From Escherichia coli (GTDB taxonomy: Bacteria; Pseudomonadota; Gammaproteobacteria; Enterobacterales; Enterobacteriaceae), in NCBI RefSeq assembly GCF_030013595.1, contig NZ_CP122768.1: a DNA stretch of 64,000 nucleotides, one strand, 5' to 3'. This document shows, piece by piece, positions 9,108 to 12,261 of the stretch; position 1 is the stretch's first letter, and the number at the start of each line of letters is the position of its first letter. Position numbers and translations under genes: made by a program. Under the pieces are notes generated by a model. That model made no database searches. It saw only the letters and a program-made list of their open reading frames with translations, and was not told where the DNA came from.

Positions 9108-10679
9108 TTACTGAGAGCTCAGATCAACTTTCCAGGGCAACAGATCGCGTACCCGGTTTGCCGGCCAGTCCTGGATATGTTCAATGACGTAACGCAGCCA
9201 CTTTTCTGGCTCCACATTGTTCAGACGGCATGTGCCGATCAGCGAGTACAACACCGCCGCATGTTCACCACCGCTGTCGGAACCCGCGAACATCCAGTTT
9301 TTCCGGCCTACGGCCACTCCCCGTAAGGCGTTCTCTGCGATGTTGTTGTCGATTTCCACCCAGCCATTACTGCAGTACACGTTCAGTGCATCCCACTGTT
9401 TCAGCAGGTATGCGAACGCTTTTGCCGTATCTGAGTGACGCGACAGTGTTTTCATCTGTTGCTGTATCCAGTCATACAGTGACTGCATCAGTGGCGCGGC
9501 TCTGGCTTTTCTTGCCGCCAGACGCTGTTCTGCTGAACAGCCCCGGACCTCTGCCTCGATGGCATACAGTTCACCGATACGCTGCAGGGCTTCCGTGGTG
9601 ATGTAGGTGGGCGCTCTTGCATGCACATCGTGGATTTTTCTCCGGGCATGAGCCATACACGCGGCTTCCGTTATTCTGCCGGATTCGTATAACGCCCGGT
9701 AACCACCGTAAGCATCGGCCTGAAGCACACCGCTGTAACCGGCCAGGTGATTTTGTGGATGGATACCTTTCCGGTCCGGACTGTACGCGAACCAGACCGC
9801 CGGGGGCATCTGTGAACCGGCGTTACGGTCATCACGGACGTAGACCCACAGCCGGGCTGTCCGGGTTTTACCGCTGCCCGGCTCCTGGACCGGGACGGGG
9901 ATATCATCAGCATGGACTTTACCGGGCATCAGCACATACTGGCGCAGGACGTCATACAGCGGCTCCAGCAGTTCAGCAACAGCACCTGTCCAGCGCCCCA
10001 GTGTGGCACGGCTCAGCTCCACTCCCTGACGACGGTATATTTCTGACTGGCGGTATAACGGCAGATGGTCTGCATATTTCCCGGTGACAACATGGGCCAG
10101 AAGCCCCGCTCCGGCATAACTGCGTGCAATGGGTTTTGAAGGTACTGGTGCCTGTACGATATGGTCGCACCGGCAACAGGCCTGTTTCGGACGTTGTGTT
10201 TCGATAACCTTAAAGGCGCTGCTGATAAGCTCCAGTTGCTCTGACACATCACATCCCAGAGAACTGAGTTCACCACCACAGGCAGGACAGCATTCCTCTT
10301 CCGGCCGGATAACCCGGGTTTCACGGGGAAGTGAGGCCGGTAACGGTTTACGGGCTGAAGACTGGCGCAGGGCGGATGGCAGTACCGGGTCATATTGCTC
10401 ACCCAGCGTTTCCGCCATTTCTTCCTGAAGTGCGCTGATTCGCTCCTGTGCTTCCTGTATCTGCCGTTCGGTTTTTGCACGAAGTTTTTCTGAGCTTTTA
10501 CCGAACTGCATACGTTGCAGTTTCGCAACCAGCGCCTTCAGCCGGTTGATTTCGGAAGCATAAGCCGCCACCCGCTGTGAGAGCAGGCGGTTGTATTCAG
10601 CCATCTGGCGGATGGTGTCCTGTTGCGTCTGCAACAGTGCCCGCAGGCGGGCGTTCTCATGAGCAAGTGAGGTGTCCAT
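9108..10679 (-). CDS. tnpC: IS66-family transposase TnpC (orf3)
   Basis: 523-aa protein with an N-terminal coiled coil, a Cys-rich zinc-finger region (CPACGG...CCRCD) and a DDE-type core. Confidence 0.85.
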
Positions 10680-10698
10680 ATCCTCACTTTACAACGGG

Positions 10699-11046
10699 TT
10701 ATATGCGGATTCCAGCGCGTTCCGTTCGTTTCGGGTGCTTCCAGTTGATACCTTCAAGAAGCATGGATAACTGAGCCGGAGTAAGGTGCACCTTGCCGTC
10801 ACGGGTGACTGGCCAGACGAAGCGGCCCCGCTCCAGGCGTTTGGTGAAGAGGCACAGTCCGTCACTGTCAGCCCACAACACTTTTATCTGGTCACCCCGG
10901 CGTCCGCGGAAGATGAACAGGTGTCCGGAGAACGGGTCATCCTTCAGGACGTTCTGAACTTTTGATGCCAGGCCGTTAAAGCCATTTCGCATATCGGTGA
11001 TACCTGCAACCAGCCAGATACGCGAACCTGCAGGGAGAGATATCAT
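10699..11046 (-). CDS. tnpB: IS66-family accessory protein TnpB (orf2)
   Basis: 115-aa protein (MISLPAGSRIWLVAGITDMRNGFNGL...) typical of IS66 Orf2. Confidence 0.8.
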   Translation of the reverse strand: MISLPAGSRIWLVAGITDMRNGFNGLASKVQNVLKDDPFSGHLFIFRGRRGDQIKVLWADSDGLCLFTKRLERGRFVWPVTRDGKVHLTPAQLSMLLEGINWKHPKRTERAGIRI

Positions 11047-11720
11047 CAGTGGCTGCTCCCTTTTATTTCGCGGATAAGTGTCTGTAATAACGCCGGCGTC
11101 AGTTTACCTTTAAGCCTGAGAGTTCCGGCCGGCAGAACCAGCTCACAACACAGACTGTCGGACGGTGTATTTATCTGCTCTGGTTCCTGTGCGGGGGCCG
11201 GGATTTTATTATCCGGCTCCGGCGTTAACGTCACGGGAAGCAGTGCCGGCATATTTTTTCCGGAAGGCAGCAGGCCACCTTTCCGGTATTGATGGCGCCA
11301 GTTGAAGAGCAGGTTATCGTTGATTCCGTTTTCCCGGGCGATCTGCGCCACACAGGCTCCGGGCTGCAGTGACTGCTCCACTAAGGCGATTTTAAACTCA
11401 TAAGGGAAGTTGGGCCGCCGGGGACGTTTTTTTACCACGGGGGCTTCGGATATAACGGTGCTTTCAGGACGTACGACTGGTACCGTGGAAAATTGTCCGT
11501 AAAGGCAGGCATCAAGTTCCTGCTCCGACATGCCTGCGGGCAAAGGCCACGAAAGGCCAGCTCTCCGAAAGCGCACGAACATACTACAAACTGTTGATTT
11601 TGGTACACCCAGGCGACGCCCGGCCACAACCCGGGGTAAATGTTCTTCAAAGTGAAGACGTAAAGCTTCAGTGATCCAGGTCCGGTGTTTCATACGATAG
11701 TGTCCATTAAAAATGGACAT
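11046..11720 (-). CDS. tnpA: IS66-family TnpA (orf1) with an N-terminal extension
   Basis: Helix-turn-helix region FPYEFKIALVEQSLQPGACVAQIARENGINDNLLFNWRHQY. The stop overlaps the tnpB start. Which Met is the true start is unresolved. Confidence 0.65.
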   Translation of the reverse strand: MSIFNGHYRMKHRTWITEALRLHFEEHLPRVVAGRRLGVPKSTVCSMFVRFRRAGLSWPLPAGMSEQELDACLYGQFSTVPVVRPESTVISEAPVVKKRPRRPNFPYEFKIALVEQSLQPGACVAQIARENGINDNLLFNWRHQYRKGGLLPSGKNMPALLPVTLTPEPDNKIPAPAQEPEQINTPSDSLCCELVLPAGTLRLKGKLTPALLQTLIREIKGSSH

Positions 11721-11772
11721 TATTTTTGTAGAGCCGGAGGAAACAGACCAGACGGTTTAAATGAGCCGGTTA

Positions 11773-12237
11773 CTATTCAGCTTCATAAAGCTTTTTGAAC
11801 ATGGGGCTTTGATCCCAGGCGATCCCTTTGTAACGCTTCATATTTTTCCGCAATTCATCCTTTGAAAGATTCATAAAACGGATTTTTAATTTTTCATCGG
11901 TTTCAGTGTTGTAAACCAAATGTTCCATCCCACGCCAGGAGGACTCCAGTTTCTGAAATTCCGGATGACTCAGGATTAGTTTGATCTGCTCAGTTAATTT
12001 GAAATCGATCTGCTCAATAATCGCAGCAATACTTTTATAAGCGTCGTCACTGACGGTGACGGTATTTGTCAAAGCCTGTTGGGCCAGCGTCTGAACTGCT
12101 GCCTCAACAGCCTTTGCTGCCTGAGGTGTCTTGGGACGGAAGGCTTTATCCAGGAGCGAATCAAATTCAGTGTCCTGATAGGCAGTGGTTTGCGCAGCAG
12201 AGAGTTCGCCAGTCGCCAGAAGAGTATCGTTTACCAT
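11773..12237 (-). pseudogene. tssC: T6SS sheath large subunit TssC, truncated to the N-terminal 154 codons by the IS66 element
   Basis: Contains the conserved FQKLESSWRG block of the TssC/VipB N-terminus. The reading frame ends in a TAG formed at the IS junction, and the remaining ~350 codons are absent. Confidence 0.8.
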
Positions 12238-12261
12238 GAAAGTTCCTTAATAAAATCGCAG

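What the first reader, a model, noticed from the sequence alone, without database searches (positions are those of the whole stretch)
11046..11773. IS66 tnpA has an unusually long N-terminal reading frame and a start codon buried in a perfect palindrome
The first IS66 gene is 224 codons as drawn, with the recognisable helix-turn-helix region in its second half; IS66 orf1 products are usually shorter, so the real start may be internal. The annotated ATG lies inside a perfect inverted repeat, TGTCCAT-TAAAA-ATGGACA (11701-11719). On the mRNA this could sequester the start codon, a common way for insertion sequences to dampen transposase translation.
Basis: seen in the sequence. Interest (0 to 1): 0.25.

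Follow-up and report, generated by a model that had tools for sequence, protein, structure and literature searches.

The report
Conserved leader hairpin of IS66 tnpA
The palindrome is real and is one copy of a stem-loop kept just upstream of the first gene in many IS66-family jumping genes, most likely to hold down translation of that gene; the annotated start codon sits in the stem and is probably nine codons too early, while the long N-terminus is a real extra DNA-binding domain.

Summary
The element is ISCro1 (IS66 family), window 9078-11773, minus strand, inserted in the T6SS gene tssC. The 224-codon ORF and the palindrome are both present. In this copy the palindrome is really 8+8 bp with a 3-nt loop.

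The long tnpA is not an anomaly. ISCro1, IS679 and relatives carry an extra, confidently folded N-terminal helix-turn-helix domain, and NCBI has a curated model for this long form.

The first 9-10 codons do not behave as coding sequence:
- In relatives the upstream ATG/GTG is often out of frame or closed by a stop.
- The stretch shows no third-codon-position relaxation.
- The curated family model starts at residue 12.
- AlphaFold gives residues 1-11 low confidence.

The conserved start is ATG 11693-11691 (MKHRTW...).

The sequence between the two starts is a stem-loop. It begins at IS position ~50-54 and ends 0-11 nt before the start codon. It is conserved with compensatory changes across long- and short-TnpA IS66 elements. 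Its 3' arm holds the only Shine-Dalgarno-like GGA.

The best reading is an mRNA hairpin that occludes the tnpA ribosome-binding site, as in IS200, IS10 and IS50. No promoter or transcription start could be established. A DNA-level role is not excluded.

This is an ordinary kind of feature. I found no description of it for IS66, but the main IS66 papers could not be read.

The parts
9078..11773 (-). ISCro1 (IS66 family), 2696 bp in this copy; canonical copies are 2699 bp
   Evidence: 99.9-100% identity to copies annotated 'IS66-like element ISCro1 family transposase'. Ends fixed by 8-bp target duplications in other copies.
11748..11773 (-). Left terminal inverted repeat (GTAACCGGCTCATTTAAACCGTCTGG)
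   Evidence: Read. Imperfect match to the right end. Pairwise identity 0.89 among relatives.
9078..9103 (-). Right terminal inverted repeat (reverse complement GTAAGCGACTCGTCAGAACCGTATTG)
   Evidence: No target duplication on this side in the window.
11698..11722 (-). Leader stem-loop: UA-A-UGUCCAUU / UUU / AAUGGACA-C-UA. 5' arm 11712-11722, loop 11709-11711, 3' arm 11698-11708
   Evidence: MFE hairpin of -8.3 kcal/mol. It is the only consensus structure in 21 leaders. Covariation. Identity 0.92 with no codon-position pattern.
11718..11720 (-). Annotated tnpA ATG (IS position 54), lying in the 5' arm; probably not the conserved start
   Evidence: PGAP uses it. In relatives it is out of frame or followed by a stop. 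The NCBIfam model starts at residue 12. Residues 1-11 have pLDDT <50.
11703..11705 (-). GGA, the only Shine-Dalgarno-like triplet, 9 nt upstream of the conserved start, inside the 3' arm
   Evidence: Anti-SD duplex -3.0 kcal/mol, against -1.7 and +1.5 for the other candidate starts. Predicted unpaired probability 0.00 when both arms are in the transcript. UCC/GGA is nearly invariant across subgroups.
11691..11693 (-). Conserved tnpA start codon (M10 of the drawn ORF; protein MKHRTW..., 215 aa)
   Evidence: An ATG or GTG sits at IS position 81-88 in nearly all relatives. Many relatives are annotated from MKHRTW.
11046..11693 (-). tnpA as re-drawn (215 codons plus stop)
11499..11678 (-). Extra N-terminal helix-turn-helix domain of TnpA (about residues 15-74)
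   Evidence: AlphaFold gives four helices with pLDDT 90-95. tblastn also hits N-termini of IS21-family IstA. Weak SorC/DeoR/sigma-region-4-type HTH matches.
11247..11420 (-). HTH_Tnp_1 domain of TnpA (residues 101-158), the part shared with short IS66 TnpA
   Evidence: Pfam PF01527, E=8.5e-15. NF047595 matches residues 101-218.
10699..11046 (-). tnpB (IS66 Orf2, 115 aa); its start overlaps the tnpA stop (UGAUG)
   Evidence: Pfam PF05717, E=4.7e-40. Sequence read.
9108..10679 (-). tnpC (DDE transposase, 523 aa)
   Evidence: Pfam DDE_Tnp_IS66, E=2.5e-103, plus zf-IS66 and LZ_Tnp_IS66.
10667..10687 (-). Second hairpin, at the tnpC start: GUGAGG-AUAUGGACA-CCUCAC. The Shine-Dalgarno GAGG pairs with codons 3-4.
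   Evidence: Analogous SD-to-codon pairing with different sequences in other IS66 elements.

Best explanation
The palindrome is the ISCro1 version of a stem-loop that IS66-family elements keep in the leader of tnpA. The stem-loop starts about 50-54 nt from the left tip of the element and ends a few nucleotides before the tnpA start codon.

In the mRNA the 5' arm (UGUCC...) pairs with the 3' arm (...GGACA). The 3' arm contains the only Shine-Dalgarno-like triplet (GGA), 9 nt upstream of the conserved start (ATG at window 11693-11691, protein MKHRTW...). The folded stem therefore occupies the ribosome-binding region and keeps TnpA translation low. It would also lower TnpB, whose start overlaps the tnpA stop.

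The ATG annotated as the start (11720) is simply part of the 5' arm. It happens to be in frame in ISCro1.

Shown here: the structure, its conservation and covariation, the non-coding evolution of the 9-10 'extra' codons, and the position of the conserved start.

Inferred: that the structure acts at the RNA level and reduces translation. More speculative: that it acts mainly on read-through transcripts, because the element's own transcripts might start inside the AT-rich loop (the IS10/IS50 logic).
For: Structure and conservation:
- The hairpin is the only consensus structure in 21 leaders. It has 10 pairs, 3 of them with compensatory changes.
- 93.8% of cells are paired, against 26-44% when the partner is slid. 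Covariation score is 0.130 against 0.060 in shuffles (0/500 reach it).
- With arms anchored on the near-invariant UCC/GGA core, 22 elements were compared, including short-TnpA IS66 elements and ISEc8. 7 of 12 pairs change on both sides, covering 40 cells. Score is 0.387 against 0.166 shuffled (0/500) and at most 0.096 slid.
- Loop length varies from 3 to 24 nt and the inner stem is replaced in one subgroup, yet the hairpin persists.

Position relative to translation signals:
- The stem ends 0-11 nt before the start codon in every subgroup.
- GGA gives the best anti-SD duplex of the three candidate starts, at -3.0 kcal/mol. Its predicted unpaired probability is 0.00 in any transcript with both arms and 0.62 in a transcript starting in the loop.

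The extension is not conserved coding sequence:
- The distance from the upstream to the downstream start is 27 or 30 nt (in frame) in some lineages and 31, 34 or 47 nt in others. In-frame stops occur in L017, L019 and L071.
- Identity at the three 'codon positions' of the extension is 0.91/0.93/0.88, against 0.76/0.85/0.51 in real tnpA codons.
- The NCBIfam model begins at residue 12.
- pLDDT is below 50 for residues 1-11.
- When an IS3-family element splits the hairpin, PGAP calls the 215-aa form from MKHRTW.

Precedent: the IS200 5'UTR stem-loop sequesters the SD and blocks 30S binding (PMC4513863).
Against: - No transcription start site or promoter could be established. The consensus scan found none on either strand. 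It is therefore not shown that the hairpin is in the mRNA.
- GGA is a very weak Shine-Dalgarno sequence, and AUG81 itself is only about half paired in the predictions.
- Folding z-scores of whole leaders are modest, median -1.8. The ISCro1 stem is the weakest of the family at -8 kcal/mol.
- G.U and A.C departures are about equally frequent, by my reading of the arms listed. This gives no strand-specific signature of RNA pairing.
- The sequence of the arms and loop is conserved beyond what pairing needs (0.92 identity). Its distance from the IS tip is fixed at position 54. Both fit a DNA-level site as well.
- The L005-like subgroup has direct repeats of ATGGACAC and only weaker hairpins.
Confidence: 0.6

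Rival explanations
1. DNA-level cis element. The inverted repeat would be a binding site in double-stranded or extruded DNA for an element protein (TnpA has two HTH modules) or a host protein. It would act as an operator of the tnpA promoter or as a left-end-specific signal for transposition.
For: - The 5' arm starts at IS position 54 in almost every subgroup, even where positions 25-49 have diverged.
- Arm and loop sequences are conserved at 0.92 identity, more than the terminal repeat itself.
- The word ATGGACAC recurs as direct repeats in the L005-like subgroup.
- The loop is a repeated target for insertion of other ISs, which suggests an unusual DNA structure or a recognised site.
- There is no strand bias between G.U and A.C departures.
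Against: - Spacing between the half-sites varies from 3 to 24 nt, and one subgroup replaces the inner stem while keeping a hairpin. That is hard to reconcile with a fixed dimer operator.
- No copy of the motif lies near the right end, so it is not a symmetric transpososome site.
- Compensatory changes keep pairing rather than a fixed sequence.
- The stem always abuts the start codon.
Confidence: 0.2
2. The annotated ATG (11720) is the true ISCro1 start, giving a 224/225-aa TnpA, and the hairpin sequesters that start codon.
For: - The ATG is in frame in ISCro1, and RefSeq annotates it (WP_001339397.1). The corresponding protein cluster (P0007) has 2,424 member sequences.
- An ATG or GTG is kept at IS position 54 in most relatives that have this stem.
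- The peptide MSIIFNGHYR is identical in several relatives whose TnpA is only ~62-65% identical.
Against: - It is out of frame or stopped in about half of the lineages.
- There is no third-position relaxation, so the identical peptide reflects nucleotide conservation.
- There is no SD upstream; the anti-SD duplex is -1.7 kcal/mol.
- The family model starts at residue 12 and the segment is predicted disordered.
- The A/G at position 54 covaries with its pairing partner (GC 12, AU 4, GU 1).
Confidence: 0.12
3. An initiation site in the 3' arm. The AUG of AUGGACAC (window 11707-11705) would open a 5-codon mini-ORF (MDTIV) whose UGA overlaps the tnpA AUG. TnpA would then be made by termination-reinitiation, and the hairpin would hide that AUG.
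For: - With a 6-nt spacer the mini-ORF ends in (A/G)UGA over the tnpA start. With a 7-nt spacer it is in frame with tnpA (L015, L041, L019).
- In Mixta elements, the codon that is GTG at IS position 80 in the other L005-like elements (annotated as the start in L005) is CTG there. An upstream ATGGACAC must therefore supply the start.
- The tnpC start reads AUGGACAC too.
Against: - The overlapping UGA follows automatically from the conserved Met-Lys (ATG AAA) start, so it is not independent evidence.
- IS679 has no ATG in its 3' arm. L011 has GTG, and the L006-type elements give 20-49-codon out-of-frame ORFs.
- This AUG has no SD; the anti-SD duplex is +1.5 kcal/mol.
Confidence: 0.05
4. A chance palindrome, or a terminator for antisense or outward transcription.
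For: - Perfect 7-bp palindromes are common in the window: 66 were found.
- On the + strand the ISCro1 hairpin is followed by TTATTTTTG.
Against: - Conservation and covariation across many genera exclude chance.
- The T-run is absent from IS679, the L006-type elements and all short-TnpA subgroups.
- The terminator scan did not call it, and no antisense promoter was found.
Confidence: 0.03

Closest known systems
IS200 tnpA 5'UTR stem-loop (Ellis, Trussler and Haniford 2015, PMC4513863)
   Same: An inverted repeat in the left end of an IS forms a stem-loop in the transposase leader. There it hides the Shine-Dalgarno sequence and blocks 30S binding. The element promoter is weak and expression is limited at translation.
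   Different: In IS200 the effect is shown by toeprinting and fusions, the SD is strong, and an antisense sRNA and a separate terminator act alongside it. Here nothing is tested experimentally, the SD is a bare GGA, and no antisense RNA or terminator was found.
IS10/IS50 'fold-back inhibition' of read-through transcripts (from my own knowledge of Davis, Simons and Kleckner 1985 and Krebs and Reznikoff 1986; papers not read here)
   Same: An inverted repeat lies near the outer end whose distal arm covers the translation initiation region. The logic that only transcripts entering from outside contain both arms would fit an AT-rich, -10-like loop (TATAAT in L017 and L041).
   Different: A resident promoter between the arms is not demonstrated for ISCro1. 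The promoter scan was negative.
   Same: Same three-gene layout, same long TnpA (216 aa) with the extra N-terminal HTH, more than 94% DNA identity from IS position 411 onward, and TAATGTCCATTTT at the same IS positions 52-64 with an AATGTCC/GGACATT stem.
   Different: The first ~410 bp are diverged; overall TnpA identity is 60% and is much lower in the N-terminal domain. The loop is 15 nt. The upstream ATG opens an 11-codon out-of-frame ORF whose TGA overlaps the tnpA ATG.
Short-TnpA IS66 elements (ISEc8 and relatives)
   Same: Terminal repeats, tnpB and tnpC are shared. A leader hairpin starts at about IS position 50-54 and abuts the tnpA start.
   Different: TnpA is 113-133 aa and lacks the N-terminal HTH. 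Stem sequences differ, for example GAGUCC/GGACUC and ACGUCC/GGACAU.

Membership tests
IS66 family / ISCro1 | Three consecutive genes tnpA, tnpB (IS66 Orf2) and tnpC (DDE_Tnp_IS66) | tested here: met
   Pfam PF01527, PF05717 and PF03050 plus zf-IS66 and LZ_Tnp_IS66. The tnpA stop overlaps the tnpB start.
IS66 family / ISCro1 | Imperfect terminal inverted repeats beginning 5'-GTAA | tested here: met
   GTAACCGGCTCATTTAAACCGTCT and GTAAGCGACTCGTCAGAACCGTAT.
IS66 family / ISCro1 | 8-bp target site duplication | tested here: not met
   The window copy has GCTGAATA on the left and ATTGATGT on the right. Other copies have perfect 8-bp duplications, and L097 has the same tssC site with GCTGAATA on both sides. 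The window copy has therefore lost its right flank by deletion; this is not a family mismatch.
IS66 family / ISCro1 | Near-identity to elements named ISCro1 | tested here: met
   99.9-100% identity over 2696 bp to copies annotated as ISCro1 family. 1492 of 5426 complete E. coli genomes hold a near-full copy.
Long-form IS66 TnpA (NCBIfam NF038385) | Score above the curated cut-off over the whole model | tested here: met
   295.8 bits against a cut-off of 150. Model positions 1-189 of 190 align to residues 12-205.
Translation-start-sequestering leader hairpins of insertion sequences (IS200, IS10, IS50 type) | Inverted repeat in the left end that overlaps the SD or start of the first gene | tested here: met
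   The stem at 11698-11722 contains GGA and ends 4 nt before ATG 11693.
Translation-start-sequestering leader hairpins of insertion sequences (IS200, IS10, IS50 type) | Pairing maintained in evolution (compensatory changes) | tested here: met
Translation-start-sequestering leader hairpins of insertion sequences (IS200, IS10, IS50 type) | The hairpin is present in the tnpA transcript; for the IS10/IS50 type, only in read-through transcripts | not testable with these tools
   No promoter was found by the consensus scan and no TSS data are available.
Translation-start-sequestering leader hairpins of insertion sequences (IS200, IS10, IS50 type) | Disrupting the stem raises translation or transposition | not testable with these tools
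   This needs reporter fusions, toeprinting and mating-out assays.
Rfam RNA families | Match to a curated covariance model | tested here: not met
   No match with E<=1 in window 10600-11900.
Intrinsic terminator | G+C-rich stem followed by a U-tract on the transcribed strand | tested here: not met
   On the sense strand the stem is followed by CUAUCGUAUG. The scan did not call it on either strand.

The most novel reading that the evidence does not exclude
The stem-loop may be more than a translational damper. It could be a multi-purpose left-end module fixed at IS position 54, working as an IS10-like filter. In that reading the AT-rich loop carries the -10 of the element's own promoter, so resident transcripts lack the 5' arm and only read-through transcripts are silenced. 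At the same time it could be a DNA hairpin recognised by proteins. Repeated, independent insertions of other ISs, mostly IS3-family, exactly into its loop hint at this. If so, IS66 elements would carry a conserved structured site that other ISs home in on.
Probability: 0.15. Interest if true: 0.5.

Novelty: new member of a known kind. Interest (0 to 1): 0.3.

Why it matters
The practical gain is modest.
- It corrects a very widely propagated gene model. The 225-aa ISCro1 TnpA annotated in RefSeq (WP_001339397.1) belongs to a protein cluster of 2,424 member sequences.
- It shows that the 'long' orf1 is a two-HTH protein and not a mis-call.
- It defines a conserved cis element in the IS66 family, a family whose regulation is, to my knowledge, little studied.

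ISCro1 and IS679 are abundant on enterobacterial virulence and resistance plasmids, so a simple handle on their expression is useful. ISCro1, the most successful member in E. coli, has the weakest stem of the group. The general principle is already well known from other insertion sequences.

Tried and rejected
- Promoter and terminator scan of 11500-11900 found no promoter on either strand and did not call the hairpin as a terminator.
- Rfam search found nothing.
- Whole-leader folding z-scores are only modest, so thermodynamics alone would not have singled this out.
- The idea that TGGACAC is a protein site present at both ends was rejected, because there is no copy near the right end.
- The apparent 'direct repeats' in the L053 subgroup turned out to be an outer stem GGAUAGUG/CACUAUCC around a new inner stem CACCA/UGGUG.
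- I tried to use the G.U versus A.C asymmetry to decide between RNA and DNA. The two kinds of departure are about equally frequent, so it was inconclusive.
- The antisense-terminator idea (T-run after the stem on the + strand) holds only in the ISCro1-like subgroup, so it was dropped.
- Han et al. 2001 (IS679) could not be read. Literature searches for IS66 leader structures returned nothing.
- Foldseek and PDB profile searches for the N-terminal domain gave only generic, non-significant HTH matches.
- The metagenome scan with the left-repeat pattern gave only 12 loci, several of them interrupted by other ISs.
Full report
WHAT IS THERE

The finding lies at the left end of an insertion sequence on the minus strand of the window. 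Three consecutive ORFs carry the IS66 signatures:
- a 224-aa ORF with Pfam HTH_Tnp_1 at residues 101-158;
- a 115-aa IS66 Orf2 (TnpB_IS66);
- a 523-aa DDE_Tnp_IS66 transposase with zf-IS66 and LZ_Tnp_IS66.

The element runs from 11773 (GTAACCGGCTCATTTAAACCGTCT...) to 9078 (...GCTTAC). It is 99.9-100% identical to copies that RefSeq names 'IS66-like element ISCro1'. These are present near full length in 1492 of 5426 complete E. coli genomes and on many plasmids. Perfect 8-bp target duplications around other copies fix the ends.

THE OBSERVATION

The + strand reads TGTCCAT-TAAAA-ATGGACA at 11701-11719, and the ORF 11046..11720 starts with ATG at 11720-11718. On the coding strand the pairing in this copy is 8+8 with a 3-nt loop (UGUCCAUU-UUU-AAUGGACA). 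It continues for two more outer pairs after one A.C mismatch, which is the A of the ATG.

This copy lacks 3 bp of the loop compared with canonical ISCro1, which is 2699 bp with ATGTCCATCATTTTTAATGGACA.

A perfect 7-bp palindrome is not remarkable by itself. The window has 66 with loops of 3-8 nt, against about 24 expected.

IS THE LONG ORF ODD?

Other IS66 subgroups do have a short orf1. ISEc8 tnpA is 126 aa, and NCBI's short-TnpA model NF047595 has 113 positions and matches only residues 101-218 here.

The long form is nevertheless a recognised family. NF038385 (190 positions) scores 295.8 bits against a cut-off of 150. IS679 TnpA is 216 aa with the same layout. Dozens of relatives from Pantoea, Erwinia, Xenorhabdus, Serratia, Salmonella and Klebsiella are 207-215 aa.

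AlphaFold on a 20-sequence alignment gives this picture:
- a confident four-helix domain at residues 16-75 (pLDDT 90-95);
- a disordered linker at 79-98;
- a second confident HTH at 108-147.

The N-terminal domain also finds N-termini of IS21-family IstA by tblastn. It gives weak SorC/DeoR/sigma-region-4-type HTH matches. The extra length is therefore a real second DNA-binding module.

WHERE DOES TnpA START?

RefSeq uses the upstream ATG for ISCro1. Five observations argue against it being the conserved start.

1. Reading frame. In relatives the distance from the ATG/GTG at IS position 54 to the ATG/GTG at position ~81-85 varies.
   - It is 27 or 30 nt (in frame) in ISCro1, L011, L012, L018 and L049.
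   - It is 31 nt in the Shigella variant, L004, the Pantoea stewartii copies, L015, L041 and IS679.
   - It is 34 nt in L071 and 47 nt in L019.
   - L017, L019 and L071 have in-frame stops.
2. Codon-position pattern. Among 14 ISCro1-like leaders, real tnpA codons show identity 0.76/0.85/0.51 at positions 1/2/3. The 'extension' shows 0.91/0.93/0.88. It is conserved as nucleotides, not as codons.
3. The curated family model aligns from residue 12.
4. Residues 1-11 have pLDDT below 50.
5. Where an IS3-family element has split the region, the pipeline calls a 215-aa TnpA from MKHRTW.

The conserved start is ATG 11693-11691.

WHAT THE INTERVENING SEQUENCE IS

RNAalifold on 21 leaders predicts a single consensus structure, a 10-pair hairpin UA(G/A)UGUCCAU...AUGGACA(C/U)UA. 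On that alignment:
- 93.8% of cells pair, against 26-44% with slid partners;
- three pairs change on both sides (AU to CG, GC to AU, UA to CG);
- the covariation score is 0.130 against 0.060 in shuffles (0/500 reach it).

Short-TnpA IS66 elements, which lack the N-terminal domain altogether, have a hairpin at the same place with different sequences:
- L065 has UGAUAGAGUCC/GGACUCUAUCA directly before ATG.
- The L062 group has a 12-bp stem ACUUAGACG(U/C)CC/GG(A/G)C(A/G)UCU(A/G)AGU directly before ATG. L074 is fully compensated.
- The L053 group keeps the outer stem and has a new inner stem.
- ISEc8 has GGUGUCCAC/GUGGGAACC.

I then placed the arms of 22 elements in register on the near-invariant UCC/GGA core:
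- 7 of 12 pairs show double-sided changes, covering 40 cells;
- the score is 0.387, against 0.166 in shuffles (0/500) and at most 0.096 for slid partners.

Loop length ranges from 3 to 24 nt. Predicted stabilities run from -7.5 kcal/mol (IS679) and -8 (ISCro1) to -21 (L025). The hairpin region is better conserved (0.92) than the terminal repeat (0.89), the spacer between them (0.66) or the gene (0.62-0.77).

HOW IT MOST LIKELY WORKS

The 3' arm contains the only Shine-Dalgarno-like triplet, GGA, 8-9 nt before the start codon in most subgroups. Its anti-SD duplex is weak at -3.0 kcal/mol but is the best of the three candidate starts.

In partition-function folding, GGA is never unpaired (probability 0.00) in any transcript containing both arms. 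It is 0.62 unpaired if the transcript begins in the loop. The stem ends 0-11 nt from the start codon, inside the 30S footprint.

The simplest mechanism is occlusion of the ribosome-binding site by a leader hairpin. This has been demonstrated for IS200 (PMC4513863). From my own knowledge it is also described for read-through transcripts of IS10 and IS50.

The tnpA stop and tnpB start overlap (UGAUG), so TnpB would be limited too.

I put this explanation at about 0.6. It is an inference from structure, position and conservation. No promoter or TSS could be defined.

The loops are AT-rich and often resemble a -10 element (TATAAT in L017 and L041). This keeps open the IS10-like variant, in which resident transcripts start inside the hairpin.

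RIVALS

A DNA-level site is the main alternative (about 0.2).
- For it: the fixed distance of 54 nt from the tip, conservation of sequence beyond pairing, the direct repeats of ATGGACAC in the L005-like subgroup, the lack of a G.U/A.C strand bias, and the use of the loop as an insertion site by other ISs.
- Against it: the variable half-site spacing, the replaced inner stem, and the absence of the motif at the right end.

A mini-ORF coupling model from the AUG in the 3' arm gets about 0.05. Chance or an antisense terminator gets about 0.03.

COMPARISON AND NOVELTY

The element is ISCro1, and its TnpA belongs to the long-form family; both are already known. The hairpin belongs to a well-known kind of IS control. 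I found no description of it for IS66. The library searches returned nothing and Rfam has no model. The key IS66 papers (Han et al. 2001, Gourbeyre et al. 2010) could not be read, so priority is uncertain.

I rate it a new member of a known kind, with interest about 0.3. Most of that comes from the annotation correction and from how cleanly the comparative evidence resolves.

Noticed in passing
window 9060-9110 and 11765-12240; L097: ISCro1 sits in the T6SS sheath gene tssC, whose N-terminal 154 codons remain at 11773-12237. The window copy has no 8-bp duplication (GCTGAATA on the left, ATTGATGT on the right), and the rest of tssC is missing. E. coli PK-F-10122 has the same insertion site with GCTGAATA on both sides and the C-terminal part of tssC. 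The window strain has therefore suffered a deletion starting at the right end of the IS. Only 1 of 5426 complete genomes shares this junction.
   Followed up: partly
window 11709-11713; L001:1554-1575: The window copy lacks 3 bp of the hairpin loop compared with canonical ISCro1 (ATGTCCAT[CAT]TTTTAATGG). This shortens the loop from 8 to 3 nt and lengthens the perfect stem to 8 bp. It removes one Ile codon from the annotated ORF.
   Followed up: partly
L095:355-375 and 1775-1795; L083, L084, L085, L088 (leaders); L019:2954-2990: The T-run in the hairpin loop is a repeated insertion site for other insertion sequences. An IS3-family element (ends TGAACTGCGCCCCAGATCTTGGACAAC...) with a 3-bp TTT duplication splits the loop in many E. 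coli ISCro1 copies (the top 20 hits). At least two further, different elements interrupt the same spot in metagenomic relatives. L019 carries a 16-bp remnant of such an end, which forms a nested hairpin.
   Followed up: partly
window 10667-10687 (minus strand); several loci: The tnpC start is also in a hairpin: GUGAGG-AUAUGGACA-CCUCAC. The Shine-Dalgarno GAGG pairs with codons 3-4. Other IS66 elements have analogous pairings with different sequences, such as GGGGA/UCCCC and GGCGGGA/UUCCCGCC. This suggests that tnpC translation depends on ribosomes arriving from tnpB, whose stop is 20 nt upstream.
   Followed up: partly
window 11363-11773 versus L002:1583-2000: ISCro1 and IS679 are mosaic. They are more than 94% identical from IS position 411 to the right end. 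The first ~410 bp (left end, leader, N-terminal HTH of TnpA) are too diverged for megablast. This points to an exchanged left-end module.
   Followed up: no
window 11499-11678: The extra N-terminal HTH of TnpA gives tblastn hits to the N-termini of IS21-family IstA transposases from Roseomonas and Bradyrhizobium (36-39% identity). This suggests domain sharing between IS families.
   Followed up: no
window 11774-11790; L096:3184-3200: The 17 bp outside the left end resemble the flank of an unrelated ISCro1 copy (CTTTATGAAGCTGAATA versus CTTTATGAGTCTGATTATC). This was enough for megablast to extend past the IS end in many genomes. It may reflect a target-site preference.
   Followed up: no
L026-L040, L044, L064 (Mixta mediterraneensis): One genome carries about 20 copies of an L005-type IS66 element. 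In these copies, the codon that is GTG at IS position 80 in the other L005-like elements (annotated as the tnpA start in L005) is CTG. The functional start must therefore be one of the upstream ATGGACAC repeats.
   Followed up: partly
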